From Phyllosticta citribraziliensis (Eukaryota): a DNA stretch of 64,000 bases. Shown one piece after another: positions 4,327-62,420 of this stretch. Both the position numbers and the translations under genes were made by a program. The stretch lies in NCBI RefSeq assembly GCF_038025025.1, contig NW_027117345.1:1302001-1366000 (forward strand). The letters run 5' to 3'. Under the pieces are notes generated by a model. It searched no databases. It saw only the letters and a list, made by a program, of their open reading frames with translations, and was not told where the DNA came from. The number at the start of each line of letters is the position of its first letter. The stretch's first letter is position 1.

Positions 4327-5162
4327 GGTGTGGGGGTCTGTTGTTTACATTTCGGCCTCGGTTGCGGCGGGTTTGACCGGGCGATGACGACAGCCGAATC
4401 CGATCCAAAACACGCTGCACGTGATGGCGTGATGACGTGAATAACTCTTCTGCCACCCTGTCCACCTGGACCACACAACTGCTTCATCTCCCATTTAGCG
4501 ACACTCGACGCTCCTCCTTGAAAATCAAGAGAATGGCCTGATCCAGTTGATCCGGTGAGTAGACACGAGGCGTGCCAAACCCGTGGCACACCCAATACAA
4601 AGCCAGGGCCACATGAGGAGCGTTCACAATCTTCAACATGGACCTCATGGGAGTATTTAATCTCATGCACATCAAAATCTTTGCGAGCATTCAAGCTCCC
4701 AAGGTCTCTCCAAAGGATAAATTAACGAGGAGCATTCAAAAGACTTGTTGTCGCTGGTACCCTCTGCTTGCAGCCACCCCTTTGGTACAGCCGTCCGTCC
4801 CATGGAAACAAAACCGAAAAGTTTGCGTCCCCCCCTCGACTACCAGGACACCATTTTGCGCGGCACCACCAACAGCAACAAGTCTCAAAGGCTCCCATCC
4901 ATCCAGTGTCCCTGCTCGTCTCTCTCTAGGATACCAACTTCCGACTCACGAAAGGCACACCACCACATTGATTATCTTCATTCTTCTTTGCAGCAGCAGC
5001 GAATTGTACACAAAATCAAACGATAGCTATTAAGGTTGTCCAATTGGGCGAATGGACAGCAAGCCATATCCGCCTTGAAACGAAGAAGGATCCAGTCGAG
5101 ACGGCGACGCAAAAGACCAAATCCAGTGGCTGAGACTAGTGCGACATCAATCAGGACCCCAT

Positions 5163-35229: not shown

Positions 35230-36690
35230 ATGGCGGTCTCCCGTACGCACTGCCCAACCCTTTGCCTCGCTCTGCCTCGCTGACTGTGTCCAGCTGTCGT
35301 CCAAAACTCGCTGCGCCAGCTCTTCAAGCGCTGCGTGCAATGTCCAAATGAGACCCCGTCCTGCCCCGCCTGCGATGATGACGAGTACTGCTCGCAAATG
35401 CTGTCGTCATGCACCACCTGTGCCTCGGCCGTCTGCGTCAAGATGGACGGCTCCTCGTCGGACGGAGGGGCCAAGGGCGGACCCAATGTTGGCGCCATTG
35501 CCGGTGGTGTCGTAGGAGGTGTTGCGTTTGTGCTGATTTTGGCCTTTCTCATCTGGAGATTTTACGTCAAGAGAAGGCGAGACGGAGAACAGTCTGAGCA
35601 GTGGTCGCAGATTGAGCATGAAAAGGCCAACAACAGCGATTTTGCCATGCAAAGAGACGCTCGCGCTTCGACACACACCGTCGGCTCCATGGCTTCGACC
35701 GTTCTGACCCGCGCCTCGAACATCATCCAAATCGCCTACATTCCTGGCGTCACAAATCGTTCCGCTCCTCAGTCTCCCGGCCACCTTGCTCCACCTGTTC
35801 CTCCGATCCCCGCAGCGCACTCGCAACGGACCAGTCCCGGTTCCGAGGAGCAACACTTCTTCGTCCCAGGAGACCTCCGCGATTCCACGTACTCTGGCCT
35901 CTCCGACCCCCGTACCAGCTATGCCCGGAGCAGCGTCGCCACCACCATTTACCGCGACAATGCTGTCGTATCTCCTCTTCCGGCCCAGACCATCGTGCGC
36001 GGCAAGGCTGCTGTTGTGAGCGTGAAATCCAGCAACACAAGCTCCCCGTCCCCGACGCCTGGAAGCACGACTCCTCCGGTCCCCGCGATAGACTACGGCA
36101 AGCTGGAAGAGGAGGGCAAGGTCCAGACGCCAACCCCGAAGAGCAAATTTAAAATCCAGATGCCTCACTCATCGGACGGCCCCAGCTTAAGGCCCGGTGT
36201 CAGCCCGTCGGGATCGGTCAGGAGCTTCCAAATCGCCAAACCAAAGGCTCTCAATTTGGTAAAGGGCAAGACTTCCAACTCGTCATTGCTTAGCTCGACG
36301 AGCAGGGGTGCCAGTGATTCTATTTCGACTGCGTCGACCCCTTCGAAAGAGAGGTCTGAAAACAGCGCCGATCGGATTCCCATCACATTACGTCCGCTCA
36401 CCGAGGTATCTGTCACGGACTCGATCGAAACCGCGCCAGAGGACCCAGTGAGCCGCATTTCGGACGACTCGTCGGATGATGAGCCGTCAACCCGCCACCA
36501 AGGCGCGTACGTCTCCACCCATCACAAGGGATCGGCCACTTCCTCGTCAAGCGGACTTCAAAGTCCATTTGCCGATGCCCAAACTGGCGAGGAAAACGTC
36601 GACGCCAAGACGAAGACCAAGGCATCAGAGGGCGATTCGGGCCGGGCACGGAGCCCTTTTGGCGATGAACACGCGGTCAAGGATGATTAA
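35230..36690 (+). CDS. OPY2: Opy2 membrane anchor (HOG/filamentous-growth MAPK signalling)
   Basis: ATG 35230 in gccaccATGg context; intron 35243-35293 gives MAVSPVVQNSLRQLFKRCVQCP. Eight-Cys N-terminal domain, TM helix GAIAGGVVGGVAFVLILAFLIW, and ARASTHTVGSMASTVLTRASNIIQIAYIPGVTNR. Confidence 0.9.
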
Positions 36691-38537: not shown

Positions 38538-41500
38538 ATGGCGACCATGGTAGCTGCAAACGCGGTGACGCCGCCTCGCCGCCAGCAGCAGCAATACTAC
38601 ATGAGCAAGTTGGAAAGCACCAATCATTTGTCCTCTCACCACGCCTCAACCACGTCTTCGCCGTCCACCGATGTTGGTGCTACATTCAGCACTTCCCCTC
38701 CCTCGCCTTCAGAGGCATCGACCGCGCCTACGTCATACTCACCGTCCGTTGATGGCTCCCCGTCATCGACAACGCACCCGGTACCGAAGTATCATCCGCA
38801 TTCAAGCCCTGGGCCTCACCGCATACCGGCGCCTCCTATTCCCCTTCTCCAGCCAAGTCGTCCTGCGCCAGTTCCATCGCGAGCACCGTCTCAACTCTCC
38901 TCGACAACTCAAAAGGATATTACTAGGGATTCTCAATCAACGCCCAGGCATGGCGACTCTGCATCGAAGCAGGATGCTGCTGACAACAAGGTCTCGTGGA
39001 ATGACCGTTCGCGCAGCCGAAGCCTTTTTGGGTTCCGTTCGGGGCGGGGACACTCATCCCGCTCCTCGTGGGGAAAGCCACTAGGATCAAAGACGAGCAG
39101 GGGAGACTTGCAGTCGTCGGCGAAACCACTTTCTGCTAGCAAGAGCTTGGGAGAAGTTGAGTCCAAGAAAGCGGCTCAGAGGAAGCGTCAAGACAATCCT
39201 GATAGATCAGGCCGGGTCTTCCAGGATGGTGAAGGCGATGCGCTCCCAGAACCACCCACCACGTCAGAACTCCGGGCAAGTCCTGAGGCGAAATCAAAGG
39301 CCGGTCACCGCAAGCGGTGGAGTTTATCGACAGGATACAACGCCATCGCAGGTCAAAACACTTCATCGCCAGTTACAAAATCCACAAATTCGCCACCACG
39401 TCATGACCGTCGGGCCACGTCTCCCGTAAATCGAAGCCCCAGCTTCTTTTCCAATCCTCGAAATGCTGCTCCGACCACGGCAGTTGCTGCCGGAACAGTT
39501 ACACCTTCTACAAGCACCAGCAGCCGAGGCCAAGCCAGTGTTTTTTCACGCACTCATACTCGCAGCAGCAGCGCCAACACGGCTGCAACCACGCCTTCTA
39601 CAATTAGCACGACAAACATGAACAGTTCAACTGCAGCCGCAGCCGCTGCCGCCGCGGTCATGACTAGCCCAACAGGCTTTTCTGTTGAGCCTGACGCCAA
39701 CCCCACCCTGCAAACTTTGCAACCCGAGCCCCTTAATGTTTCTAGCCGGACCACCATTGTTCCCGATACGGATCCCATCACCCCTGGTCGGACGCTTATG
39801 CCTTCTATGCCGTATTCTGCGACTGGATTAAACGCGGCATCGTCTTCAACCACGTCTTTAACCAGCGGAGGCGGTCGGCGGCTACGCCCCCGTGGCTTTT
39901 CACTGACTGGTGGGACTTCTTCGCCATCGGCATCGGTCGGCCGATTGGGCAGCTTGACTGGGGGATGGACTTCTGGGTGGACCAGTGGTAATGGATGGAA
40001 TCCTGGTGGGTGGAGTAATGGACTGCGCGCGACCAGACAGGCTCCAGGGTCGCCGGTTGGCGGGTCCTGTACGGTGAATCCAGGAATCGTCACTGGAGCA
40101 GTGTCGAGCAGCGTTGTCAATGGCTACGGTGAACATAGCCCCAGCCCAAGCGGCAGAGGCAAAGTCAGGATGCGGGATGTGGGAAACGGGTGCGAACTCG
40201 ACAGGAGGCGTGAGCGGTCAGCCGGAAAACGAGGACGCAGCAGCAGCGCAACACTACGACCTTCTCCCGATTCGACCGTTTCGCTGCAATCTCGTTCCAG
40301 GAAGCCTTCGCCTCCGTCGGACTCGTCGAAACCCTCCCCAATCACTTCCCCATCATCCAACACGGAGGCATTCCCACCGCTGAGCGCAACACCCTCGACG
40401 ACCACGCTCACCTCTCCCACTTCACCGAATGTCGGGTCCAATTTGAATAAGCCGTGGCCACCGCTTCCCTTACACCTCCGTCGGCGTCGCGCGAGCACGC
40501 CAGCATCTCCGTCTCGACCGCGTCCTCTCGTCTCCGGGGACGCAGTTCCCTTCGTGCCGCCGCCGCAAACCACAGGCGCTGGCATTGTGACAACGGGGAC
40601 GACGTTGAGCAGTTCTGCGGCAACGCCCACGTCGCAAACACCGCTCCCACAGACCCCCATGTCGACCACGTCCATGTCCACCACGGGCACGGCGTCTACG
40701 ATTCGCGGCCACGCACGCGACTCTCAATCCTCGACGGCGCTTCTGTTGCCCAAAGAGACAGCTCCACAGCCCGCCACGACGACGTCTGCGCCATCTCATG
40801 CGCCTCTGTCGGCACCGCCCAAAGCCGCGACTGTGCCGCCTACGGATCTCAAGCAGCCACCGCGCCGGACGTCGTTCTCATCGCTGGCAGCACGCGAGGC
40901 ACGAGCTTCGTTCCAAATGAATCGACGAGGTGCCAACGAAGGTCCAGCCTCCAACAGCGGCGGAAGCTCGTCCGGAAGCGGATTCCGCTGGCGCCGTCCA
41001 CATGGTGACAACTCGGCGCGTGCCAACAACACAGCGACGTCTTCCACAGCCGGTAGCCGCTCTGCGAGTCGGGGCCGTGGTCGCCGGTCTATCAGCGAGA
41101 GCCGTGGACGTGGACTGAGCAGTGGCCGCGCGAGCGATGACAGCTATAGGGGCATCGGCGGTGTCAAGAGGGAGGGGAGCACGCGTACTGTGCAGGCGGC
41201 GGTGATGCCGGCGTTGTTGCTGCTGGGCACGGAGCTGTTTACACCTGGCAAGCGGCCAGAAGACGTCGGCTTTGGCAAGGCGGTGGCGGCTGGTGGAGCG
41301 GTGCGAGGCGTTGGCGGAGCAGGGAGGGCCGTAGGCGTGTTGGATGTGGACGATGTCGATGACGAAGAACACGAAGGCGAGGCTGGAGAAAAGCGTGGTG
41401 TTGCGGGTGTGAGGGCAAGGGCTGCGACAACGACGGCGATGGAGAACAAACCGACGAACCGTCCTCGTCATCAGCATACGTCGTCCGCGTTCTCCTACAC

Positions 41501-41999
41501 GCACACGCCCTCGCACTCCCTATCGCGCATCCAACACGCGCCATCAACAGCCACCTCGTCCTCCCTGTCTATCCCATCCACCTCCACCCACCACTACCCC
41601 CTCAAATCGCACGCCCCACAGCAACCCCTCTTCCCTAACCCCCCTCCCAAAACGCAACCCTCTTTCTCCCTCCTCCCGCCAATCCCACAATCGCAATCGC
41701 ACACGCCCATCCCGCAGTCACCCTCGCCGAAGCCCCCTTCGTCCCACGCGTCCCCTAAACCGGCCCAGGCGTCGCCCGTCCCGGCGCCCGCCCCCTTCAT
41801 CTCGCGCCTCGACCCGGGCTCATCGTGCCCCTTCACCGTCGACGCGACGAATGGCCACTTCGACCCGCCCAACATGCGCGAGGCCAACTCGCCGTTCCGC
41901 CGCTCGCTCAGCCCGCCGGTCAAGGACTTGGGGCGTGAGGGCGACCTCATGGCTGGCATGGAGGCCGTGTGGCGCAAGTGGGAGATGGGCGTTGCGTAA
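38538..41999 (+). CDS. 1153-aa intronless S/T/P/R-rich disordered protein of unknown function
   Basis: 3.46-kb ATG-initiated open frame with no recognisable folded domain. The only hydrophobic patches are QAAVMPALLLLGTELFTPG and the C-terminal GDLMAGMEAVWRKWEMG. Confidence 0.65.
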   Translation: MATMVAANAVTPPRRQQQQYYMSKLESTNHLSSHHASTTSSPSTDVGATFSTSPPSPSEASTAPTSYSPSVDGSPSSTTHPVPKYHPHSSPGPHRIPAPPIPLLQPSRPAPVPSRAPSQLSSTTQKDITRDSQSTPRHGDSASKQDAADNKVSWNDRSRSRSLFGFRSGRGHSSRSSWGKPLGSKTSRGDLQSSAKPLSASKSLGEVESKKAAQRKRQDNPDRSGRVFQDGEGDALPEPPTTSELRASPEAKSKAGHRKRWSLSTGYNAIAGQNTSSPVTKSTNSPPRHDRRATSPVNRSPSFFSNPRNAAPTTAVAAGTVTPSTSTSSRGQASVFSRTHTRSSSANTAATTPSTISTTNMNSSTAAAAAAAAVMTSPTGFSVEPDANPTLQTLQPEPLNVSSRTTIVPDTDPITPGRTLMPSMPYSATGLNAASSSTTSLTSGGGRRLRPRGFSLTGGTSSPSASVGRLGSLTGGWTSGWTSGNGWNPGGWSNGLRATRQAPGSPVGGSCTVNPGIVTGAVSSSVVNGYGEHSPSPSGRGKVRMRDVGNGCELDRRRERSAGKRGRSSSATLRPSPDSTVSLQSRSRKPSPPSDSSKPSPITSPSSNTEAFPPLSATPSTTTLTSPTSPNVGSNLNKPWPPLPLHLRRRRASTPASPSRPRPLVSGDAVPFVPPPQTTGAGIVTTGTTLSSSAATPTSQTPLPQTPMSTTSMSTTGTASTIRGHARDSQSSTALLLPKETAPQPATTTSAPSHAPLSAPPKAATVPPTDLKQPPRRTSFSSLAAREARASFQMNRRGANEGPASNSGGSSSGSGFRWRRPHGDNSARANNTATSSTAGSRSASRGRGRRSISESRGRGLSSGRASDDSYRGIGGVKREGSTRTVQAAVMPALLLLGTELFTPGKRPEDVGFGKAVAAGGAVRGVGGAGRAVGVLDVDDVDDEEHEGEAGEKRGVAGVRARAATTTAMENKPTNRPRHQHTSSAFSYTHTPSHSLSRIQHAPSTATSSSLSIPSTSTHHYPLKSHAPQQPLFPNPPPKTQPSFSLLPPIPQSQSHTPIPQSPSPKPPSSHASPKPAQASPVPAPAPFISRLDPGSSCPFTVDATNGHFDPPNMREANSPFRRSLSPPVKDLGREGDLMAGMEAVWRKWEMGVA

Positions 42000-43876
42000 A
42001 TGGACGCCAAACAGCGGATACGGTACCGCAGTACGTCGCTGAGGAGGCTGGCCATCATGCCAGACGGGAAGTAAGCGCACTTTGCGTGGTGACGATGATG
42101 TGTCGGAGTGCGTGCGCCCTGGTGGTCAGGTGATGCGGCGGTTTTACGCGTGTAATTCTAGTCTCTCTCCACTTTCTTTTCTTTCCTTTCTCTTCGTTCT
42201 TACCCCTTCTGCTCATTCATTTCGCCGCTCCTCCCGTCATGGCGGCCTCGACGGCTGCGACGGGGGGAGAGGCAAGCAACGATATTTTGCATCTTCTACG
42301 CGGGAAACGAAAAAGGAATGGCAAGGCCACCGACGAAGAGAGGATTGCGCGTGCGCATTTTTCTCCTTTTTCTCCGGGCTAATATGGAGGTTGAGAGTGT
42401 GTAGTGAGTTGGGTGGCGGGTGGAGGGAGCATGTAAATTTGGCGGGGTTGAATAAAAAGGTCAGGCTGTAAGCAGCAACATGATGGCAATGGAAGGGAAG
42501 GATATCAAAGTAAATGAAGTCGACCAAGTGTTACATGACTAAGGATGATCTGTGGTCGTCGTGATCAATGTAATTGGTGGGCTGGCTCGTCTCACGCCGA
42601 CCTCCATATACACGAAATGGGGGAGAAGCATGGCGACATCTACATTCATAGTCTCAACGGAGACGGAAATGGAGCATCTTGGGGCCCAATTGCGTCGCCC
42701 AAATGGGCTAGGAAATTAATACCCATGCTTTCGTTCCTGTCGATAGATGTCCGCATAGAGATGGGACCACCGATGCTTGAGAAACCGTCCCAGGAGCACT
42801 GGCAGCGTCCAACGCCACGAACCACGCTGCTCTCACGACAGCGGAAGAACAGCAAGAATCACGACGCGCACGTGGAGCACAGAAAGCCGGGGAGGGTCGA
42901 CCACGTGGTTTTCAAATGGTCTGAGCTCCGTACAGACTGAAAGCGGGGACGTCGTGGTGATCCAACTGACGGGGGCAGGATTCGTTTGCAAGAGACCGGG
43001 GAGTTCACAGTAGTTCTCAGAGTGCAAACGTCCGATGTCGACGAAAAGCAGACGAGCCATCAATGGTGTGCAACCCGAATTGTCGACTGTAAGAAAGCAG
43101 TGGTGAGTAAGGTTCAGAGGGTGCTCTGTCAACAGAAGCTGCTGCCACGGCAGGTCTCATGGCTCCGGTAAAAGGCAGAGGTTAGGCGGGATGGATGATG
43201 ACTCGAAGAGCCTGGCGAGAAGCCGATTTCGGGACTCGTTTGAACGGGTTTACTGCCAAACATCAGGCCACGGGGGACGTGGTGCCATTTGCGTGCCCCC
43301 CTGATGCTGCTGGGAACCCCTCGCAGGTAGGTAGCGACGAGACATGTCCGTTTGTTGCAATCAGACTGTGTTCCTTTTGAGCCTCCCTTTGCTGTGCCGT
43401 CGGTGGAGGCGGGGAAAGACGTGGGCCTCTGAGCGGTCTGGCGGTCCAATCTCAGCACTGAGATTTTCGTGACGTGATGCTTATGCGCTGCGCTCCATGA
43501 TCAACGACAGTCAACATTGCCCGGGGATTGTTGAAGTGTTTGCCTGGCAGTACGGCGACCGCTGTCCAAGGTCAACAAACGGACTATGACGATAGCGGAC
43601 GGATTCTGAGGCTGACGGACGTCAGATGGCGTGACAAGTTCATGTCGTTGGCGCAAACCGCGGGGAGAGGAAGCGGGGCAGGGTGAGGTCGAAGTGGGTT
43701 TGACGGGGGAGACCGACATTCAGCCGCCCTGTTGCTATTCCCGCCTGCCCAGCTCTCGATTCAACGCCTGAGCCCTCAACATCATCGAGCCAGCCGGCCT
43801 TGAATGCATGCGATAACCCCGCCCTTTTGGGTCTCCTGGCTCTAGCCATCATGCAGCCCTCGGCCCTCGACAAACT

Positions 43877-53992: not shown

Positions 53993-55799
53993 ATGTCTTT
54001 CACCACGCCCACCTCCCGAATCTTTACAGCCCTTCTGGCTGCTGGCACAGCTCTTGCCAAGCCCATTGCGAAGCCGCAGTCCGCATCTCCCGATCTAGGC
54101 AGTGGCATTCCAACTGCCTCTGGGCTCACCATCACCAGCCTCACCTACTATGGCGACGGATGTCCTGAGGGCACCCTGCAGGGACAGTTTTGTCCAGAGA
54201 CGTCTTCTTTCAACGTAACAATAACCGAATTGAAAGCGATTCTCCGTAAGTGCAAAATCACTTCATGGCACTTGGTTGAGAAGGGTACTGACAGCATCCA
54301 GAGGATGGAAAGCCCAGCGATGACGCCAGCTGCCATATCGAAGTCGGTTTCAAGACCGAATCTCAGATTCAACTCAATCTCCTCCAGTATGTTCCCGAGA
54401 TTGCCCTCATCTAACGAAACTAACCGTATCCAGGGGTGACTTTTACGGCTCGTGTTATCTGGAGTCTGCTGGTATGACTGCTTTGGCACATAGCAGTGTA
54501 TCCTTCGCCGGCAACTCCGGTGGCTCCAACATTCCCTGGCTTTTCTACGGTCCGGTCGACGCCAAGGCAGTATACGAGCATAATTTGCTTGAAGTTTTCG
54601 TCTCCCAGTGCTCGACAGGCGGCGACTTTCTCATGCTGGTCGACCTCGTTTTGCACGTAACTCGTGGACCCGCCGCTGCCGACGCCGTTGGGTATATCGA
54701 CATCGACCAGTTGACTGGTGCCATCAGCCAAGCCTACGTTCTCCAGCCAAGCCCTTGCGGCAAGACCATTGAAGCCAAGCCGCCTTCATCTACACAGCAG
54801 CAGTACGGCGGCAGCTACGGCAAGGAGGCCGCCGAAGAGACCAAAAAGAAGGGCAAGACCAGCAAGACCTCGGGCGGTTACTCCACTAATACGAACGAGG
54901 AGGAGGAGAAGAAGAAGAGCACTAGCGGAGGCGGTGGCGGGTACACAACCAACAGCAACAGCGGAGAAGAGGAAAAGAAGAAGAAGGAAGAAGAAGAAGC
55001 GGCGAAGAAGACAACGACGAGTGGCGGTGGCGGTGGCAGCAGCTACACGACCAACAGCAACAGCGGAGAAGAGGAAAAGAAGAAGAAGGAAGAAGAAGAA
55101 GCGGCGAAGAAGACAACGACGAGTGGCGGTGGCGGCGGCAGCAGCTACACGACCAACAGCAACAGCGGAGAAGAGGAAAAGAAGAAGGAAGAAGAAGAAG
55201 CGGCGAAGAAGACAACGACGAGTGGCGGTGGCGGCGGCAGCAGCTACACGACCAACAGCAACAGCGGAGAAGAGGAAAAGAAGAAGAAGAAGGAAGAGGA
55301 ATCGAAGAAGTCGACGTCGTGTGGCGGCGGAAGTGGAAGCAGCAGCGGCGGCGGCTGCACTTACAACAAGGAGGAAATTGAGTACAAGAAGAATGGTGGT
55401 GAATGCGGTCAGAAGTGTTCCTACAAACCGTGCTCACAGGAAGAAGAAGACAACAAGGTGAATAGCTTTTCTGATTACGAGAAAAAGCTGTACTACGAGG
55501 CGAAGGAGCACTACAAGCTGAGCCTGGAACTTGAGTACAACAAGGACACCAAGTACGGTTACGAAGAGTCAAAGAACCAGGGTGGCGGCGAGAAGAAGCC
55601 CGAGGCAGCCAGCTACCAGGAGCAAAAGACACCCACTGAAGGCGACAACAAGTACCTCAAGTATGATCAAGGCACAACCGACTACAACGACTACCTTTTC
55701 AGGACAAGATTGTTGGCTGAGCAAAACAAGGGCGAGAGTGAGGAGGACAAGAAGAAGAAGAAGGACAAGTGCAAGCGCGATGGTGATTGTGGACATTGA
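53993..55799 (+). CDS. Secreted DUF4360-like protein with a C-terminal G/S/T-E/K tandem repeat tail
   Basis: Signal peptide (RIFTALLAAGTALA). ITSLTYYGDGCPEG..SFNVT..C.IEVGF..GDFYGSCYL resembles DUF4360. Introns 54246-54301 and 54387-54433 join in frame to ORF 54474-55799. Confidence 0.75.
54921..55320 (+). repeat. In-frame 102/102/99-nt tandem repeat (YTTNSNSGEEEKKKKEEEEAAKKTTTSGGGGGSS)
   Basis: accaacagcaacagcggagaagag starts at 54948, 55050, 55152 and 55251; copies are nearly identical. Confidence 0.95.
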
Positions 55800-56863
55800 G
55801 CGAAGGTTCAGGTGGATGGTGGGATTAATTGGTCGATCTAATGCAGAGGTAGGAGGCTTCATCATCATCAAAGGCTGCATTCGCCAGCCAACCGGATCGA
55901 CTAGACTTCCTGGTAATCGGTCATTCAAAAGGATATCAATCGGTGTTAATATGGCGCCTCTCCTTGGTAAATCTAATACACTCCTTGAGTAGACAGCAAT
56001 GGTAATCTACATTATGAACTCACTTCCTTTCCATCTTCATCGTGATGTCGCAACCGCTTGAGACATATCAAGCCTGCGGTTTTGCCTCATGGCTTGGTTT
56101 TGACCGTCTGGTGAATCGAAATCTTCCAGGACGCGTGGGTGTGGCAGTGCGCAGGAGAAACACCGACCGGAGAAGACGACCATGGGAGCGAGGGGTAAAG
56201 TGTTCAGATCTTGACGTCAGGCCACCAAATGCGGTCGTTCGCAGGCTGTTGGGAGATTCTTCAGCGCTCGACTCCTGGCTGATGCATTTTGTCCAGGTGG
56301 CTGTGGTGTCGGGTTGTTGTGGTGATGGCGGTTCCGTTCTGGCGCCGAAGGAGGCCACCGCACCTTCAAACCGTGGGTGGGGACCGACGGCATCGGCCCG
56401 CGGCAGAATTCCCCAACTCTGACGCCGACCGCCTGCGCGCACCTCGACGACAAACCCCTCCTGCAGAACCTTGAGTCTATGAAACAAGCGGCAGGTCGAA
56501 ATCGCAGTTGGAGTTCGACAGCGAAAACCATGATGGAAATGAACAAACTGACTCTCTTCCGAGCTTGTCCCCGTTCAAGTTCCGTGTGGCCTCACCACTC
56601 AAAGGGGAGGGACCAGTATCATGAAGTTCCATGTTTAATCCAGGGCCAGGTTGTTGAGGTGAATATCAGGTTGCTTTGCGCGGACGACCACCGTAAAAAA
56701 AGGAGAAAGGACCCCAACACGGGATTTCTTGTTCTCCAGAGCCCCCTTCCTTCCAACCAACTTTCCTTCTCGGTAGATACATATATCAACGCAAGTATCT
56801 TTCCGATTCACAACCTGCAGCTTCTCCATCTGTTCCCCCAATGCCTGATCTCCCAGAGTAGCC

Positions 56864-59800
56864 ATGCGATCTCTTGCAGTCATCACGGCAACATTGCTTC
56901 TCTCCGTAGGGGTTCTCTCAAATCCTCTGCGAACTCCTCCGTCCATTGAAGAGGGGCAACACTCCATCGCTTCCATCGAGGATGTCACTCGGTACATTCC
57001 AGTCAACACCTCATCACTCTCATACGATAGCCAGGATGTTCCAGTGGAAACCCCATCTGTCCAATACGGAAGTCAACATGGTCCAGTTGAGTCTTCATCT
57101 CTCCCGTTAGTGGAAACTCCGGGAACACTATCTGTTCAATACGAAAGTCACTACGGTCCGGTCAAGACATCATCTATTCCGTACGACATTCAGTACGTTA
57201 CGGTGAGAGCTCAATGGTCTATCCAATACGGCAGCCGACATGTTTCATTGGAAACCCTCTCTTCGCATTCCAATAGTCAACACTTCTCTGTCACAAACAC
57301 CTCGACACCCTCGGCCAACCTCTCGTCCTTCGTCACAGGATCCGGTGGGAGTATGGACGCGCGAAGTGGTGCACACGGATCTTGGACAGCGACGCTCAGG
57401 AAGCCATCTTACACTCCGATCCTCGCTGGATGGGACATGTCGATTCGCTCAACGCGTCCCTCCCGATTCCTCGCCTTACCATCCAACACCTCGATCGCCA
57501 CTGGATGGAACTTGTTGACCGGCATTCTGCCCTCATTGGTACCTACTCCACCATCTAACACCTCAACCCCCGCTAGATGGGGCCTACCAACCGGCATGTC
57601 TCCCTTGTTGTTACCCACCCCATCGTCCAATGGCTCAATACCCGTTAGATGGAACATGTCGACCGGCATGTCTCCCTCATTGTTACCCACCCCATCGTCT
57701 AATGGCTCAATACCCGTTGGATGGAACATGTCGACTAGCATATCGTCCTCGTCGATACTCGCCCCACTATCCGATAGCTCGATCCCCGTTGGATGGAACA
57801 TATCGACCGGCATGTCTCCCTCATTGTTACCCACCCCATCGTCTAATGGCTCAATACCCGTTGGATGGAACATGTCGACTAGCATATCGTCCTCGTCGAT
57901 ACTCGCCCCACTATCCAACAGCTCGATCCCCGTTAGATGGAGCATATTGACCGGCATGCCTCCCTCGTTGTTACCCACCCCGCCGTCTAATGGCTCAATC
58001 CCCGCTGGATGGAATACATCGACTAGCATGTCGCCCTCGTCAATACTCGCCCCACTATCCAACATGTCGAACCCCGCTGGATGGAATATGTCGACCGGCA
58101 TTTCACCCTCGTTGGTACCCACCCCACCATTCAACACCCTGACTGGTTGGAACATTCCAGCCAGCTCAATGCGTCCCTCCTTTCCGGCCACAGCAACCTA
58201 TTCGTCTCCATGTGAATTGAGCTCAAAGTCGACCGACTGCAAGTTGTACACATTTATGACGCGGGATCAACCTCGCGGCCGGTGCATGGCCCCAGCCTTC
58301 GAGAAGCATAAAAGGTGCTCAACGGAGGAGAAGGCGCGAGATAAGACCCAGGAGAAAAGGAAGAAATGCGACAGCAGACTCGAACGAGAGGTGTTCCATT
58401 GCTTGACTAAACCGCCCCTGAAATGCCGTCAACTCCGTCAAGTCCACGAGACCTTAAGCCTTCTCCCCATGGTTTCGGAAGCTTTGACCCTGGGAATCGA
58501 AACCTGCAACGCTGTCAAAGACAAAGACTCCGCAGACACGATTTGGGACAGGCTGTCCGGCGCCATTTCGAAACAGGACAACATGGGTGTGGTCATGGAA
58601 CTCTCGAAACCAAGCAAGCAGTCACAAACGGTCATGCAACAAGTTTTCAAGCCAAAAGACCTCAAAAAACATCAGCCGTCCTTAGCAGGTGTCTTCGGCA
58701 AGCCGCGTCGTCCAAAAAGTCACGGATCCTTCATTCCACCCATCGTTTTCGGTGGGGTCGGTCTCGGAGGAATCGGAATCAATATTGGAGGAGGAGCCGG
58801 AATTTTTGGTGAAGGCGGAATTTTTGGAGGAGGCGGAGGCGGAGGCGGAGGTGGAGGCGGAGGTGGAGGTGGAGGCGGAGGCGTGATTCCGCCGCTGCCG
58901 CCTCACTCTGTTCCTCCCTCTAATCCATCCAATCCGTCGTCGATCCCTCCGTCCAATCCGTCGTCGATCCCTCCATCGGGTCCGTCGTCAATCCCTCCAT
59001 CTGGTCCGTCGTCGATCCCTCCATCTGGTCCTTTATCTACCCCTTTATCTGTTCCTACAACACCAATACCCACGCCGCGTACCATAACGAGTACCACGTC
59101 AAGTACCTCATCAAGCACCACTGCTCAGGATCAGTTATGGCACGACGAACAGGCAGAACACTCCCGTATTTACACCATGGCAATTCAAGCAATGACAGAC
59201 CCGGACCGGGACCAAAACCTGCAGACCGCCTCGAAAAAGGCCTCGTCTTGGACAGCCAGACTCCAGGAGAAATATGACAAGAAACAGAAAAAGAAGGCTG
59301 ATGCGAAGGCCGCAAAGGACATATCATCATGGCGCAAGGGCGTTGTCAGAAGCACTTCAGCATGGTGGGACTTCCTGTCTTCAGTGCAAAAGACAAAAAC
59401 GAAGGTGAACACCGCCTTGAAAAAGCTTTCCCGGTCTGACCAAAGGAAAAAGTACTACGAGTCAAGGGACTACAGGACGCAGGTGGACTCATCAGTGAAG
59501 TCGTTCGGAAAATTCGTGGACGGATATTACTCTCCTTCTTTCTCAGACCCGGAAGTAGCAGCATGGGAACAATCTCTATACGACAAAGTTATCAACAGAT
59601 TACGCCAGCAAATGAGGGATGCAGAGGATATAAATCCGCCTGACAAGCGGAATGAACGTCTCGCCTTTCTATGGATTGTATACGACAAAGTTCAAGAGAG
59701 CGCAGAAGAGGCGTGGACTAGGTGGCTTAGCGCCAAATTTGAACAAACCATACGACCAAAGGATCGTCTCATGTTGGGTCCGTATGGCCCTCATGGTGGA

Positions 59801-61831
59801 ACTTCGAATCCCGAGTCTCCATTTCGGTCGTGGGCGAGTTCTTTTGACGGTGATATTTACGATCCTGTATGGAATGTACCTCCCGGTGGAATCGATATAC
59901 CTCCAGGAGCACTCGATTCACCACCTTTCAGTGGAATCAGCGAAGGAGGTGGACTTGACCAATTGACTGATTCAGAGGACGAAGTATTTCTCACGCCGCC
60001 GGAGCAGCAGCCGGACATTGATTGCGACGAGAATCCCGGACCAGAAGAGCCGCAAGAAGTAACGCCGGATCCGCAGTCGGTCATTGATTGCGACGAGAAT
60101 TCCGGACAAGAAGAGCCGGAAGAAGTAACGCCGGATCCGCAGTCGATCATGAATTGGGTCATTGATTGCGAAACGCCAAAGGCATATCCACTTCCGGCCA
60201 CGTGGTGTTCAGATACCGAGCAGTGTCAGCCGCGCAAGTCGTGTCCGATTCACTGGAGGGGAGCGCCAAACCCGTGTCTGGATTTTTTCCGGGAGTGTAA
60301 TAGTAAGCGGAATTGTTGGTCGCCTATGTTGTGTGAGCTGCATAAAGCGCCAGAAGAACCGCCAGGAGAACCGCCAGGAGAACCGCCAGGAGAACCGACA
60401 GGAGAAATGTCCGGAGAGTGGTCATGGCCAGGAATGTGGGAAGGAGAATCGCCAATAGAAACGCCAGAAGAATGGTCATGGCCACCAATATGGCCAGGAG
60501 AATCGCCAGAAGTAGACCCACCAGAGTGCCCATCTGAGGTCAAAGAGTTCACGTGGGGTGCGGGTGCCAGCGATTGTTGGCCGCCCCAGTGGTGTCGGCA
60601 GGGCAATCCAACAAAATCACTCGACTACCTGTGTACCTTTGATAAACGGGGCTGTATGGCTCCGTGGGGATACTCGACGCCAACTGAAGACAAGACGGGA
60701 GTATGTATGGATTGGCCGCAGTGTAAGGAAAGGGGGTGTAAGAACCACAAGCCTAAAAACCCATTTTCAGGGCTACCAGGGCTTCGCCGGGACAGGCCAA
60801 AAAGTCCAATTAAAGTGTACTGTTGTTTATGGTACAGGCGTTCGGATATGTCACCTCGACCGTCGCCAGCACGAGTAAAACCACAGAAGTGTCCACCTCG
60901 GTCTGAGTGGTGTGAGAGTTCTAAGGACTGTCGGTCGCCGAAGACGTGTCGGGAGCATAAGCACAAAGAGCCAGCAGGAGTAAAACCACAGAAGTGTCCA
61001 CCTCGGTCTGAGTGGTGTGAAAGTTCTAAGGACTGTCGGTCGCCCAAGACGTGTCGGCAGCACAAGCATAAAGAGCCAGAAGAACCGTCAGGAGAACCGC
61101 CAAGAGAACCGCCAGAAGAACCGCCAAAAGCGTGCCCACCTGAGGTCATAGAGTCACAAGAATCGGCTGAAGCGTGCTCACCTGAGGTCAAAGGGTCAGG
61201 AAATTCGACAGACTCAGTGCTATACTGGGGTCCACCACATAATCCCCGCTACCAATGGTGTCAGGTAGATCCGCAGCCGCCAAAAAAGATTGGAAGATGC
61301 AAACACTGCACCGGACACTGCCCCGATGCTTGGCCATGGAACATTCAATGGTGCGTCACATGCAAAAAGCACTGCGGCCTAAGCGAACACCAGAAGTGCG
61401 GACGTTGCCCAAAACACTGCTGGAGGAATGGAAGGTGGGAAGGTCCACCTCGAGATCACAAACCAAGAAGACCAAGAAGACGACCAAAACCACCAAAGGA
61501 GCCGAAGCCGCCAAAACCGCCAAAAGAACCAAACCCGCCAAAGGAACCGAAACCGCCAAAGGAACCGAAACCGCCAAAGGAACCGAAACCGCCAAAGGAA
61601 CCGAAACCGCCAAAAGTGCCGAAACCGCCAAAAGTGCCAAAACCGCCAAAACCAGAACCAGAGTGCCGAAGATGCCTCACACACTGCCTGGGCGGTTTCA
61701 GAAAAGACCGCAGGTGTAAACGTTGCCCAAAACACTGCACCCTTTGGGCAAGGTTCGGTAGTCCTTGGAATATCCTGAAAGGTGCATCCAAATCTATATG
61801 GAATCTTGTTAAGAAAACACGTAAGTGCTAG
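56864..61831 (+). CDS. 1655-aa secreted multi-repeat, Cys-rich protein of unknown function
   Basis: Uninterrupted 4.97-kb ORF, signal peptide MRSLAVITATLLLSVGVLS, and several independent in-frame repeat arrays, which indicates selection to keep the frame open. Confidence 0.8.
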   Translation: MRSLAVITATLLLSVGVLSNPLRTPPSIEEGQHSIASIEDVTRYIPVNTSSLSYDSQDVPVETPSVQYGSQHGPVESSSLPLVETPGTLSVQYESHYGPVKTSSIPYDIQYVTVRAQWSIQYGSRHVSLETLSSHSNSQHFSVTNTSTPSANLSSFVTGSGGSMDARSGAHGSWTATLRKPSYTPILAGWDMSIRSTRPSRFLALPSNTSIATGWNLLTGILPSLVPTPPSNTSTPARWGLPTGMSPLLLPTPSSNGSIPVRWNMSTGMSPSLLPTPSSNGSIPVGWNMSTSISSSSILAPLSDSSIPVGWNISTGMSPSLLPTPSSNGSIPVGWNMSTSISSSSILAPLSNSSIPVRWSILTGMPPSLLPTPPSNGSIPAGWNTSTSMSPSSILAPLSNMSNPAGWNMSTGISPSLVPTPPFNTLTGWNIPASSMRPSFPATATYSSPCELSSKSTDCKLYTFMTRDQPRGRCMAPAFEKHKRCSTEEKARDKTQEKRKKCDSRLEREVFHCLTKPPLKCRQLRQVHETLSLLPMVSEALTLGIETCNAVKDKDSADTIWDRLSGAISKQDNMGVVMELSKPSKQSQTVMQQVFKPKDLKKHQPSLAGVFGKPRRPKSHGSFIPPIVFGGVGLGGIGINIGGGAGIFGEGGIFGGGGGGGGGGGGGGGGGGGVIPPLPPHSVPPSNPSNPSSIPPSNPSSIPPSGPSSIPPSGPSSIPPSGPLSTPLSVPTTPIPTPRTITSTTSSTSSSTTAQDQLWHDEQAEHSRIYTMAIQAMTDPDRDQNLQTASKKASSWTARLQEKYDKKQKKKADAKAAKDISSWRKGVVRSTSAWWDFLSSVQKTKTKVNTALKKLSRSDQRKKYYESRDYRTQVDSSVKSFGKFVDGYYSPSFSDPEVAAWEQSLYDKVINRLRQQMRDAEDINPPDKRNERLAFLWIVYDKVQESAEEAWTRWLSAKFEQTIRPKDRLMLGPYGPHGGTSNPESPFRSWASSFDGDIYDPVWNVPPGGIDIPPGALDSPPFSGISEGGGLDQLTDSEDEVFLTPPEQQPDIDCDENPGPEEPQEVTPDPQSVIDCDENSGQEEPEEVTPDPQSIMNWVIDCETPKAYPLPATWCSDTEQCQPRKSCPIHWRGAPNPCLDFFRECNSKRNCWSPMLCELHKAPEEPPGEPPGEPPGEPTGEMSGEWSWPGMWEGESPIETPEEWSWPPIWPGESPEVDPPECPSEVKEFTWGAGASDCWPPQWCRQGNPTKSLDYLCTFDKRGCMAPWGYSTPTEDKTGVCMDWPQCKERGCKNHKPKNPFSGLPGLRRDRPKSPIKVYCCLWYRRSDMSPRPSPARVKPQKCPPRSEWCESSKDCRSPKTCREHKHKEPAGVKPQKCPPRSEWCESSKDCRSPKTCRQHKHKEPEEPSGEPPREPPEEPPKACPPEVIESQESAEACSPEVKGSGNSTDSVLYWGPPHNPRYQWCQVDPQPPKKIGRCKHCTGHCPDAWPWNIQWCVTCKKHCGLSEHQKCGRCPKHCWRNGRWEGPPRDHKPRRPRRRPKPPKEPKPPKPPKEPNPPKEPKPPKEPKPPKEPKPPKEPKPPKVPKPPKVPKPPKPEPECRRCLTHCLGGFRKDRRCKRCPKHCTLWARFGSPWNILKGASKSIWNLVKKTRKC
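57425..58155 (+). repeat. 72-nt (24-aa) repeat array, about 10 copies, GWNMSTGMSPSLLPTPSSNGSIPV
   Basis: (g/a)gatggaaca starts at 57647, 57719, 57791 and 57863 and recurs on both sides; two subtypes alternate. Confidence 0.92.
61484..61655 (+). repeat. 18-nt repeat encoding PKPPKE/PKPPKV, about 9 copies
   Basis: ccgaaaccgccaaaggaa tandem array. Confidence 0.92.
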
Positions 61832-61849
61832 ACAAGAGATTGACTCTAG

Positions 61850-62420
61850 TCCATTAATAGAAATACTGTTACTAATAGGGTATATCTAGCCGACTTTATT
61901 TTTCTTAGGATAGGCTGGCTCACATAGGCTATAAGTACTAAGGCTAGTATAGATAAACCTAGTATTATATAGTTATAAGGTACTAGCTACTATAGCCTTA
62001 GGCTAAATACTAGCTATACCTTAGGCTACTACTAGCTACTATAGCCTTAGGTAGAGATAGTATAATAACCTATTAATACCTTACCTTTAGGAATAACCTA
62101 ATAATAACTATTAACCCTTATATAAAGGTTAGAAAGCTAGTATTACGCGACGCGGCGCGCGCAGCTTGCATTTTATAGTGTCCGGCGCTTAGCGTTTACT
62201 TCTTCCGTGTACGCTAGCTGTTTCTAGTTAGCTTAAGAGTAGATAGTCGTTCCGCGCAGGCCGCGCGACGACTACTCTTACTCCTCACCTATTGATCGTT
62301 AGTAGTCTGCATCGATTCGCTCTGCTAGGCGCCGTGACAGCTAGAAAGGTATAAAGGGAAGGCTAGGAAATAGATAGGAAGTAAGTATCTTTTATATTTT
62401 ATTCTTTTAACTTATTATAT
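61850..62420. repeat. RIP-like AT-rich degenerate tract (TpA-rich, CpA/TpG-poor)
   Basis: Abrupt switch to dense ta/tag/cta words and stops in all frames; internal repeat tactagctactatagccttagg occurs twice. Confidence 0.8.

What the first reader, a model, noticed from the sequence alone, without database searches (positions are those of the whole stretch)
56864..61831. Giant modular secreted protein with no recognisable family: glycosylated stalk, Gly hinge, helical core, Cys modules, Pro rod and cationic amphipathic tip
Seen: one 1655-aa ORF with a signal peptide, then ~15-aa SVQYGS repeats, ~10 x 24-aa W-containing repeats (usually two N-glycosylation sequons each), and a Cys/basic segment. 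These are followed by a hydrophobic glycine-zipper-like stretch plus poly-Gly (about 58745-58882), PPSxPSSI repeats, a Lys/Arg-rich predicted-helical region, and acidic EEPPG repeats. The C-terminal third has two kinds of Cys modules, a PKPPKE rod and the terminus PWNILKGASKSIWNLVKKTRKC. Inference: a surface-exposed adhesin, structural protein or processed polyprotein (many KR/RR/KK sites) delivering small Cys-rich or membrane-active peptides. I recognise no described family with this layout.
Basis: partly seen in the sequence, partly recalled or inferred. Interest (0 to 1): 0.8.

Follow-up and report, generated by a model that had tools for sequence, protein, structure and literature searches.

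The report
Orphan giant secreted fungal repeat protein
A real, transcribed 5-kb gene of a citrus-leaf fungus (Phyllosticta), for which no gene model turned up, encodes a huge secreted, probably sugar-coated, repeat-built protein with no detectable relatives; it is most likely a surface or slime-layer scaffold, but its role is untested.

Summary
One correction: a contig of run X4 joins 61820 to 61890 across a canonical 69-nt GT..AG intron. The mRNA therefore drops the last three codons, adds 12 residues, and stops at 61925-61927, giving 1664 aa. The window is from Phyllosticta, most likely P. citribraziliensis.

No relative or family was found:
- Pfam, whole protein and 8 segments
- word-indexed searches of 5.8 billion clusters
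- phmmer of residues 456-1655 against 1.84 billion representatives: 15 hits, all E >= 9e-5; the 4 I read were Gly/Pro/Lys low complexity
- PDB sequences, the protein atlas and fold searches

No gene model for the ORF turned up either, although its neighbours are annotated.

A diverged relative (run X3) keeps the frame. All 5 evaluable indels inside the ORF are multiples of 3, against 1 of 8 upstream.

KR/RR sites are not enriched (14 seen, 14.0 expected) and none lies in a repeat array, so the polyprotein idea is unsupported.

Best reading: a fast-evolving, lineage-restricted extracellular scaffold or adhesive glycoprotein. Function is inferred only.

The parts
56864..61820 (+). Exon 1 of the gene: codons 1-1652 plus the first base of codon 1653. 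The uninterrupted genomic ORF runs on to a TAG at 61829-61831.
   Evidence: ORF; X4 contig joins 61820 to 61890
56864..56920 (+). Signal-peptide-like N-terminus, residues 1-19: one basic residue, a 16-residue hydrophobic core, V-L-S before N-P.
   Evidence: Kyte-Doolittle 1.84; inference, no SignalP available
57026..57268 (+). Ser/Tyr/Gln-rich degenerate repeats: four S-V/I-Q-Y-G/E-S motifs spaced 14-25 residues.
57419..58183 (+). About 10 x 24-aa W-containing repeats with a 48-aa higher-order period. They carry 14 N-x-S/T sequons. Residues 23-440 are 31% Ser+Thr. Likely a glycosylated stalk.
   Evidence: X3 carries one extra 72-nt unit
58184..58723 (+). Basic segment with 8 Cys, residues 441-620. 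AF2 predicts helices at about 457-579, pLDDT 59-71.
58724..58882 (+). Gly-rich hydrophobic stretch (G-x-G / GIFG-like; Kyte-Doolittle maximum 1.64) followed by 19 consecutive Gly.
58883..59128 (+). Pro/Ser/Thr-rich linker with 8-aa PPSxPSSI repeats; 42% Ser+Thr and 30% Pro. A likely O-glycosylated extended rod.
59129..59773 (+). Lys-rich, non-repetitive helical core, residues 756-970. Five long predicted helices; best pLDDT block 81-84, near residues 760-800.
   Evidence: only generic helical fold matches
59997..60150 (+). 2.3 x 22-aa acidic repeats, each with one Cys (I-D-C-D-E-N).
60167..60334 (+). Cys module with 8 Cys (1102-1157) ending in C-x6-C-x5-C-x5-C at 1138-1157. A minor X3 contig lacks exactly this 20-residue unit (net -60 nt).
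60348..60508 (+). Acidic EPPG repeats (period 12 nt) and E-E-W-S-W-P repeats (period 54 nt).
60527..60742 (+). 8-Cys module, residues 1222-1292.
60865..61079 (+). Two 35-aa repeats, 94% identical in DNA (4 synonymous and 2 non-synonymous codon differences). Each holds a C-x6-C-x5-C-x5-C module.
61259..61420 (+). Cys cluster, residues 1466-1519, with three C-x2-C-x2-H-C motifs.
61454..61663 (+). Basic Pro-Lys rod of PKPPKE-type hexapeptides (TRF period 18 nt x 7.7 copies). A minor X3 contig is 54 nt, or 3 units, shorter.
61664..61738 (+). Two more C-x2-C-x2-H-C motifs, residues 1601-1625.
61760..61819 (+). Cationic amphipathic segment, residues 1633-1652. Hydrophobic moment 0.51, among the highest in the protein.
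   Evidence: AF2 helix at about 1643-1651 with low pLDDT
61821..61889 (+). 69-nt intron: GTAAGT donor, TACTAAT branch-like site, TAG acceptor.
   Evidence: X4 contig of 462 nt, depth 35.7, 0 other letters, skips 69 nt with GT..AG ends; sequence
61890..61927 (+). Exon 2 coding part: 12 residues ending in a short hydrophobic tail, then the TAG stop at 61925-61927. The X4 contig runs on to 62115, so the 3' UTR is at least 188 nt.

Best explanation
This is a genuine protein-coding gene of two exons (56864-61820 and 61890-61927). It belongs to a Phyllosticta species, most likely the citrus endophyte P. citribraziliensis. It is transcribed and spliced, and I found no gene model for it in the protein collections searched.

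Its 1664-aa product enters the secretory pathway through an N-terminal signal peptide. I read it as a non-enzymatic extracellular scaffold or adhesive glycoprotein of the cell surface or extracellular matrix. The proposed working parts are:
- Residues about 23-440: a Ser/Thr/Asn-rich repeat brush that becomes N- and O-glycosylated.
- Two helical regions, 457-579 and 754-969.
- A series of small disulfide-bonded Cys modules. These are held apart by extended Pro-rich rods (PPSxPSSI, EPPG, PKPPKE) and a flexible Gly hinge.
- Alternating acidic and strongly basic blocks, which would allow electrostatic self-association or binding to charged wall polymers.
- A cationic amphipathic C-terminal segment plus a short hydrophobic tail, which would attach the end to a membrane, wall or hydrophobic surface.

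The protein evolves fast and changes repeat or module number between relatives, as surface proteins do.

Shown: the ORF, the repeats, splicing, frame conservation, and the lack of relatives. Inferred: secretion, glycosylation, disulfides, location and role.
For: Gene is real:
- 1655 stop-free codons.
- The forward frame has the best codon score of six frames: 0.04 per codon against -0.05 to -0.33.
- A spliced X4 contig has a canonical intron on the + strand.
- In the diverged X3 relative, all 5 evaluable ORF indels are multiples of 3: -3, -3, +72, -60, -54. Upstream of the ATG only 1 of 8 is.
- Three of those indels match repeat or module units: +72 nt is one W repeat, -54 nt is 3 PKPPKE units, and -60 nt is the 20-residue four-Cys module.

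Secreted or extracellular:
- Hydrophobic N-terminus.
- 17 of 18 sequons lie in residues 48-408, and sequons are enriched.
- Ser+Thr is 31% and 42% in the two stalk regions.
- The spliced product has an even 54 Cys, arranged in recurring spacings.
- The upstream neighbour is also a secreted repeat protein.

Non-enzymatic and orphan:
- No Pfam family for the whole protein or for 8 segments.
- No relatives.
- Only generic helical fold matches: Foldseek best E 0.66; VIA best Z 8.8, below the tool's own ~13 guide value for helical models.

Fast evolution:
- GC3 is 0.518 against 0.615-0.711 in 7 neighbouring ORFs.
- Of the 14 listed X3 substitutions in the ORF, 6 are synonymous and 8 are not.
Against: - No experiment or predictor places the protein outside the cell. 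SignalP and GPI predictors were not available.
- Both AF2 models are poor, with mean pLDDT 51 and 42 from single sequences. Helices and modules are therefore weakly supported.
- Codon bias is weak, and absent in the C-terminal third.
- Listed substitution density in the first 163 coding nt (7.4%) equals that of the upstream non-coding DNA (7.1%). Only 40 of 355 differences were shown, so this is a small and selected sample. It allows very relaxed constraint.
- X4 depth over most of the ORF is low (0-11) and contigs cannot show strand. Only the 3' end is firmly shown as RNA.
- The layout is the reverse of classical fungal adhesins, which have the binding domain at the N-terminus and the stalk towards the C-terminus.
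- The hydrophobic C-terminal tail is only 11 residues and contains Arg and Asp, so a GPI signal is doubtful.
Confidence: 0.5

Rival explanations
1. It is a host-facing repetitive effector. The secreted protein coats hyphae inside the plant and shields the fungus from, or binds, host defence proteins, in the manner of Ustilago maydis Rsp3.
For: - Plant-associated fungus.
- Secreted-looking, repetitive and Cys-containing.
- Repeat-number differences between relatives. The Rsp3 abstract likewise reports length polymorphism and decoration of hyphae (PMC5923269, abstract start seen in the listing).
- Fast evolution, and no relatives outside the lineage.
Against: - No sequence relation to any protein, Rsp3 included.
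- No in-planta expression data.
- The likely source species is reported as an endophyte from healthy leaves (PMC6859488, passages).
- This reading overlaps with the best explanation and differs only in the partner: host versus the fungus's own matrix.
Confidence: 0.15
2. It is a Kex2-processed polyprotein. The protein is cut at dibasic sites in the Golgi and releases small Cys-rich or membrane-active peptides.
For: - 14 KR/RR sites exist.
- Some flank Cys-rich stretches, for example 1308, 1325 and 1535-1539.
- The C-terminal segment is cationic and amphipathic.
- KEPs are a recognised fungal class (PMC6339444 and PMC9769878, abstract starts seen in the listing).
Against: - KR/RR count is 14 against 14.0 +/- 3.1 in local shuffles; 1116 of 2000 shuffles reach it. 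All dibasic pairs number 32 against 35.8 +/- 4.6.
- 0 of 14 KR/RR sites lie in any tandem-repeat array, so repeats are not flanked by cleavage sites.
- Four sites sit inside Cys motifs: C-R-R-C and C-K-R-C, and before Cys in two modules.
Confidence: 0.05
3. It is a type I membrane protein, a signalling-mucin-like sensor. The glycosylated N-terminal part is outside, the Gly-rich hydrophobic stretch (about 621-641) spans the membrane, and the C-terminal 1000 residues, including the C-x2-C-x2-H-C motifs as metal sites, are cytoplasmic.
For: - Kyte-Doolittle 19-residue mean reaches 1.64 at residues 623-641.
- 17 of 18 sequons lie on the N-terminal side of it.
- C-x2-C-x2-H-C looks like a metal-binding motif (recalled chemistry, not tested).
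- An Opy2 gene, a partner of signalling mucins in yeast (recalled), lies in the same window at 35335-36690. That is probably coincidence.
Against: - The basic residues (K-P-R-R-P-K) lie on the N-terminal side of the stretch and none follow it for about 100 residues. This is opposite to the positive-inside rule for a stop-transfer anchor.
- The stretch is more than half Gly and runs into 19 Gly.
- The region after it is Ser/Thr/Pro-rich, like O-glycosylated stalks.
- It also holds 46 Cys in regular spacings typical of disulfide modules.
Confidence: 0.07
4. It is a young, weakly constrained ORF built by repeat expansion. It is transcribed at a low level and makes little or no functional protein.
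For: - No relatives anywhere and no gene model found.
- Low GC3 and a weak codon signal.
- A third of the ORF is tandem repeats.
- Listed substitution density matches the flanking non-coding DNA, and synonymous to non-synonymous changes are 6:8.
- Low X4 depth over most of the ORF.
Against: - 1655 open codons cannot persist by chance.
- The frame is kept in a relative that is 2.5-12% diverged, through 5 of 5 in-frame indels, while the flank has 7 of 8 out-of-frame indels.
- The two 35-aa Cys repeats differ by 4 synonymous and 2 non-synonymous codons, with all Cys kept.
- Two thirds of the ORF is non-repetitive, with ordered-looking Cys spacings.
Confidence: 0.1

Closest known systems
Repeat-rich fungal cell-surface adhesins and wall glycoproteins (Als, Flo and Epa type; recalled knowledge)
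   Same: Signal peptide, long Ser/Thr-rich glycosylatable tandem repeats that vary in copy number, and a hydrophobic C-terminal end.
   Different: No known ligand-binding domain (Pfam none). The stalk is N-terminal rather than central or C-terminal. The C-terminal hydrophobic tail is short and charged, so a GPI signal is doubtful. No sequence relation.
Ustilago maydis Rsp3, a repetitive secreted effector (PMC5923269; abstract start seen)
   Same: A secreted, repetitive, lineage-restricted protein of a plant-associated fungus, with length variation between isolates or relatives.
   Different: No sequence similarity. A different phylum, about twice the size (Rsp3 size recalled), and a different module set. 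No expression or localisation data here.
Kex2-processed repeat proteins, KEPs (PMC6339444, PMC9769878; abstract starts seen)
   Same: Secreted fungal proteins with tandem repeats and some dibasic sites.
   Different: The repeats here are not flanked by KR/RR: 0 of 14 sites lie in repeat arrays. Dibasic sites are not enriched.
Plant structural wall proteins (extensins, proline-rich proteins, glycine-rich proteins) and the TonB-type Glu-Pro/Lys-Pro rod (recalled knowledge)
   Same: Extended Pro-rich hexa- or octapeptide repeats, Lys-Pro and Glu-Pro runs, and a Gly-rich block. The composition suggests rigid polyproline-II rods and flexible hinges in an extracellular scaffold.
   Different: Resemblance of composition only. 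The extensin S-P-P-P motif is absent, 0 matches. All phmmer hits are low-complexity, E >= 9e-5.
Signalling mucins (Msb2 and Hkr1 type; recalled knowledge)
   Same: Signal peptide followed by a long glycosylated Ser/Thr-rich repeat region and then one hydrophobic stretch.
   Different: The hydrophobic stretch is Gly-rich with charges on the wrong side. The long C-terminal part is Cys- and Pro-rich like extracellular modules. No family match.

Membership tests
Kex2-processed repeat proteins (KEPs) | Tandem repeats each separated by KR/RR (Kex2) sites | tested here: not met
   0 of 14 KR/RR sites lie in any of 10 repeat arrays. No enrichment: 14 against 14.0 +/- 3.1.
Kex2-processed repeat proteins (KEPs) | N-terminal signal peptide | tested here: inconclusive
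   Hydrophobic N-terminus with small -3/-1 residues. No signal-peptide predictor was available.
GPI-anchored fungal adhesins (Als, Flo, Epa) | Recognised N-terminal ligand-binding domain (PA14, Als Ig-like, flocculin) | tested here: not met
   Pfam gives 0 families for the whole protein at E <= 1. It also gives none for residues 1-185 and 186-440 at E <= 10.
GPI-anchored fungal adhesins (Als, Flo, Epa) | Ser/Thr-rich tandem repeats with copy-number variation | tested here: met
   24-aa repeats x about 10, with 31% Ser+Thr. X3 has one extra 72-nt unit.
GPI-anchored fungal adhesins (Als, Flo, Epa) | C-terminal GPI-attachment signal: small omega residues, spacer, uncharged hydrophobic tail | tested here: inconclusive
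   The spliced C-terminus has G-A-S, a 9-10 residue spacer and an 11-residue tail, but the tail contains Asp and Arg. No GPI predictor was available.
Rsp3-like repetitive effectors | Sequence homology to Rsp3 | tested here: not met
   phmmer of residues 456-1655 against 1.84 billion representatives returned 15 hits, all E >= 9e-5; the 4 read were low complexity. None for residues 1-455.
Rsp3-like repetitive effectors | High expression in planta and decoration of hyphae | not testable with these tools
   No listed run is on record as RNA. Contigs cannot give expression levels.
PIR cell-wall proteins | PIR repeat (PF00399; the D-G-Q core is recalled) | tested here: not met
   No Pfam hit at E <= 10 for the N-terminal segments. 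0 D-G-Q motifs.
CFEM domain proteins | 8-Cys CFEM pattern including a C-x-C pair (pattern recalled) | tested here: not met
   The 8 Cys at 450-548 have spacings 8, 14, 10, 16, 10, 7 and 26. 0 C-x-C in the protein. No Pfam hit at E <= 10 for residues 441-620.
Hydrophobins | 8 Cys with two adjacent CC pairs (pattern recalled) | tested here: not met
   Only one CC, at residue 1320. No Pfam hit.
Signalling mucins (type I membrane) | A single transmembrane helix after the mucin region, with basic residues on its cytoplasmic (C-terminal) side | tested here: inconclusive
   The only candidate, 623-641, has Kyte-Doolittle 1.64, is over half Gly, and has its basic residues on the N-terminal side. No TM predictor was available.
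Extensins / plant HRGPs | Ser-(Pro)3-5 motifs (recalled) | tested here: not met
   0 S-P-P-P matches.

The most novel reading that the evidence does not exclude
The protein is a main proteinaceous scaffold of the mucoid layer and apical appendage of Phyllosticta conidia, and of the mucoid caps of its ascospores. These structures define the genus, and I did not search for what is known of their molecular make-up.

In this reading, a gene with no detectable relatives outside the lineage builds a lineage-specific structure. The glycosylated brush holds water. The Gly hinge and Pro rods give extensibility. The alternating acidic and basic Cys modules cross-link the gel. The amphipathic tip fixes it to the spore or to the hydrophobic leaf surface.

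A side claim is better supported: a 5-kb gene appears to have been missed by the annotations of the sequenced citrus Phyllosticta genomes.
Probability: 0.1. Interest if true: 0.7.

Novelty: new variant of a known kind. Interest (0 to 1): 0.4.

Why it matters
If the reading is right, this is a large surface or matrix protein missing from the protein sets I searched. It may therefore also have been missing from published Phyllosticta secretome and effector comparisons; I did not check those protein sets directly. The genus includes the citrus black spot pathogen as well as endophytes.

The protein carries two recurring Cys motifs, C-x6-C-x5-C-x5-C and C-x2-C-x2-H-C, that match no Pfam family. 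It changes repeat and module number between close relatives, which makes it a candidate strain marker and a candidate for surface interactions.

It is also a practical warning: repeat-rich, homology-free genes can drop out of fungal annotations.

The limits are plain. Orphan repeat-rich secreted proteins are common in plant-associated fungi, and no function is shown here.

Tried and rejected
Searches that found nothing useful:
- Whole-genome search of the window's own assembly: no genome is held.
- Protein atlas, whole protein and residues 745-1010: no usable hit.
- PDB sequence search: 36 rows at E <= 1. Nearly all are Gly-linker matches to scFv constructs, plus collagen-like peptides on the Pro-Lys rod. 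Rejected as low complexity.
- phmmer hits P0021, P0024, P0028 and P0033, read in full: Gly/Pro/Ser or Pro-Lys-Glu runs only.
- JGI metagenome scan with the helical core: 92 pattern matches, none confirmed by tblastn.
- Pfam on 8 segments at E <= 10: only sub-threshold rows, all far below their cut-offs. They were DUF2935 0.13, Dickkopf_N 0.4, CPCFC 0.23, DUF6022 0.28, LprI 1.5 and Med26_M 1.5.

Structure:
- AF2 on residues 440-1010 gave mean pLDDT 51; on residues 1040-1655 it gave 42.
- Foldseek against PDB: best E 0.66, apoA-IV.
- VIA-align wide: best Z 8.8, on long helices. That is under the tool's own guide value for helical models, so no fold is assigned.
- The second model was too poor to search.

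Sequencing runs:
- No RNA holder is listed among the 4 runs.
- X4 has no depth in 14 of 30 bins, and X1 has none beyond about 61718. I draw no conclusion from either.
- Four X3 joints marked 'between: not known' could not be scored for frame.

Other:
- Literature: passages of PMC9073689 held nothing on this gene, repeats or mucoid structures.
- Whole-window repeat search: no copies of the gene's modules elsewhere in the 64 kb.
- Complex prediction was not used, because no binding partner is claimed.
Full report
**Observation**

The window holds one uninterrupted ORF at 56864..61831 on the + strand, 1655 aa with an ATG start. An in-frame TGA lies 18 nt upstream of the ATG.

- Signal-peptide-like start: a hydrophobic N-terminus with Kyte-Doolittle mean up to 1.84.
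- Four degenerate S-V-Q-Y-G-S-type motifs at residues 65-119.
- About ten 24-aa W repeats. TRF reports period 72 nt x 9.2 copies, better fitted as 144 nt x 4.6. W recurs every 24 residues from 215 to 407.
- An 8-Cys basic segment at residues 450-548.
- A Gly-rich hydrophobic stretch followed by 19 Gly.
- PPSxPSSI repeats.
- A Lys-rich region predicted helical at 754-969.
- EPPG repeats at two places.
- C-x6-C-x5-C-x5-C three times and C-x2-C-x2-H-C five times.
- A PKPPKE-type rod, period 18 nt x 7.7 copies.
- An amphipathic cationic C-terminal segment with hydrophobic moment 0.51, reached by 9 of 2000 shuffles.

Tandem arrays cover 1644 of 4968 nt. N-glycosylation sequons number 18 against 9.2 +/- 2.7 in local shuffles (4 of 2000), and 17 of them lie at residues 48-408. 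Repeat copies are not independent, so this enrichment is overstated.

**Correction to the gene end**

Of the four public runs that hold the stretch, X4 contains a 462-nt contig at depth 35.7 with no differences. It joins 61820 directly to 61890, skipping 69 nt with GT..AG ends. The skipped DNA starts GTAAGT, contains TACTAAT and ends TAG, which makes it a canonical fungal intron on the + strand.

X3, a diverged relative, has a contig that runs through this stretch unspliced (61604-61896). The joined form is therefore best read as RNA.

Splicing removes the last three codons of the genomic ORF and adds 12 residues with a short hydrophobic end. The stop moves to 61925-61927 and the product becomes 1664 aa. 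The 3' UTR reaches at least 62115. The spliced product has 54 Cys, an even number; the unspliced ORF has 55.

**Organism and context**

Neighbouring ORFs carry fungal families: Opy2, WKF, PP2C and neutral ceramidase. Five of seven long ORFs are found letter for letter in the protein collection, and four of those five sit in clusters named from Phyllosticta species.

The ORF just upstream (54474-55799) is 100% identical, over all its 441 residues, to a 567-aa protein named from P. citribraziliensis. That protein lies on a contig of 2,410,793 nt, the same length recorded for the window's other proteins. The window is therefore most likely P. citribraziliensis. This species is reported as an endophyte from healthy citrus leaves (PMC6859488, passages).

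That neighbour has a signal peptide, a DUF4360 domain and its own 34-aa Gly/Glu/Lys repeats. Two secreted repeat proteins thus sit side by side on the same strand.

**Is the gene real?**

A run of 1655 open codons cannot arise by chance at 52% GC. The forward frame has the best codon score of the six frames, though only weakly: 0.04 per codon against -0.05 to -0.33. The signal fades in the C-terminal third.

In run X3 the stretch is covered in all 30 bins by contigs differing by about 2.5-12%. Inside the ORF, every indel whose size can be worked out is a multiple of three:

| Place | Net change | Note |
|---|---|---|
| 58578 | -3 | |
| 60989 | -3 | |
| 57678/57629 | +72 | one W repeat |
| 60274->60337 | -60 | the 20-residue four-Cys module 1138-1157; minor contig, depth 14.6 |
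| 61542->61604 | -54 | three PKPPKE units; depth 14.2 |

In the 450 nt upstream of the ATG, only 1 of 8 indels is a multiple of three (sizes 6, 1, 4, 11, 2, 1, 2, 2). Four further joints could not be scored, and 3 indel rows were not shown.

The two 35-aa Cys repeats differ by 4 synonymous and 2 non-synonymous codons, with all Cys kept.

Constraint is nevertheless loose:
- GC3 is 0.518 against 0.615-0.711 in seven neighbouring ORFs.
- Of the 14 listed X3 substitutions in the ORF, 6 are synonymous and 8 are not.
- Their density in the first 163 coding nt (7.4%) matches the upstream non-coding DNA (7.1%). This sample is small and selected: only 40 of 355 differences were printed.

**No relatives and no gene model**

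| Search | Result |
|---|---|
| Pfam, whole protein, E <= 1 | 0 families |
| Pfam, 8 segments, E <= 10 | only rows far below cut-off |
| Word-indexed search of 5.8 billion clusters, lengths 910-2897 | nothing |
| Same, residues 1-455, lengths 30-909 | nothing |
| phmmer, residues 456-1655, against 1.84 billion representatives | 15 hits, all E >= 9e-5, none <= 1e-10 |
| Exact-sequence look-up | absent |
| Metagenome scan | no relatives |
| PDB sequences | no relatives |
| Protein atlas | no usable hit |

The four phmmer hits I read are Gly/Pro/Ser or Pro-Lys-Glu low complexity.

The annotated proteins of this genome and of several other Phyllosticta species are in the collection. Even a partial in-frame gene model should have scored far better than anything found. 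It follows that the ORF has no gene model there. This is an inference from negative searches, not a look at the annotation files.

**Structure**

Single-sequence AF2 gives weak models.
- Residues 440-1010: mean pLDDT 51. Helices fall at about 457-579 and 754-969; the best block scores 81-84.
- Residues 1040-1655: mean pLDDT 42.
- Foldseek against PDB: best E 0.66.
- VIA-align against 48,161 chains: best Z 8.8, on long helices. This is below the tool's stated level for helical models.

No fold is assigned.

**What it most likely does**

I read the protein as a secreted, non-enzymatic scaffold or adhesive glycoprotein of the cell surface or extracellular matrix. Its parts would be a glycosylated N-terminal brush, two helical regions, and small disulfide modules spaced by Pro-rich rods and a Gly hinge. 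Acidic and basic blocks alternate, and an amphipathic, partly hydrophobic end closes the chain.

What is shown is the gene, its repeats, its splicing, its frame conservation and its module-level length variation. Secretion, glycosylation, disulfides, location and role are inferred. I put this reading at about 0.5.

**Rivals**

- A host-facing Rsp3-like coat protein, 0.15. This overlaps with the best reading. There is no homology and no in-planta data.
- A young, barely constrained ORF, 0.1. The in-frame indels speak against it.
- A type I membrane 'mucin' with a Gly-rich anchor, 0.07. The charges lie on the wrong side of the hydrophobic stretch, and the C-terminal part looks extracellular.
- A Kex2 polyprotein, 0.05. 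KR/RR sites number 14 against 14.0 +/- 3.1 expected, none lies in a repeat array, and four lie inside Cys motifs.

**Comparison with known kinds**

It works most like the repeat-rich fungal surface glycoproteins and repetitive secreted effectors, but it belongs to none of their families. It has no known binding domain. It also lacks PIR, CFEM, hydrophobin and extensin signatures. A GPI signal can be neither confirmed nor excluded.

**Most novel reading**

[quoted passage not shown] PMC6859488 describes a mucoid layer, an apical appendage and mucoid ascospore caps (passages). A gene with no detectable relatives that encodes a giant glycosylated, hinge-and-rod protein is a fair candidate for the scaffold of that matrix. 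Nothing here tests this, and I give it 0.1.

**Verdict**

The finding is real and correctly described apart from the C-terminus and the dibasic-site claim. It is an orphan, apparently unannotated, fast-evolving secreted repeat protein. That makes it a new variant of a known kind, of moderate interest, with its function open.

Noticed in passing
window 54474-55799 (+), with an upstream exon not delimited here: The gene just upstream encodes a secreted DUF4360 (PF14273) protein with four 99-102-nt (34-aa) Gly/Glu/Lys-rich repeats and a Cys-containing tail. It is 100% identical to a 567-aa protein named from P. citribraziliensis. The two other relatives found (named from P. paracitricarpa and P. 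capitalensis) align over only 29-33% of it, so its repeat tail also looks variable.
   Followed up: partly
window 61916-62300: AT-rich stretch just after the gene, with a 22-nt tandem repeat at 61990-62038. It has a depth of 3646-4732 in run X3 against about 65-110 over most of the ORF, and 49.9 against 0-5 in X2. It is a high-copy repeat or mobile element, and the gene's 3' UTR runs into it.
   Followed up: no
window 58177-58820: Run X3 holds two different versions of this part of the ORF. One has 16 differences in 644 nt (depth 79.9). The other has 65 in 527 nt plus a 3-nt deletion (depth 116.3). These could be two relatives, alleles or paralogues in that run.
   Followed up: no
window 56400-62300: A run labelled 'surface metagenome' (X2) holds 0.39 of the sampled words. 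15 of its 38 laid contigs are at least 99% alike, at depth 0-5, so this fungus or a near-identical strain is present in that sample.
   Followed up: no
window 56490-56639: An X4 contig (depth 16) lies 225-374 nt upstream of the ATG. It could be a 5' UTR or a separate upstream transcript; contigs do not show strand.
   Followed up: no
window 38538-41999 (+): An 1153-aa ORF with no Pfam family and an unusually high second-position GC (0.663). It lies in the window's GC peak (0.645 at 40001-42000). It clusters with hypothetical proteins named from P. citrichinensis.
   Followed up: no
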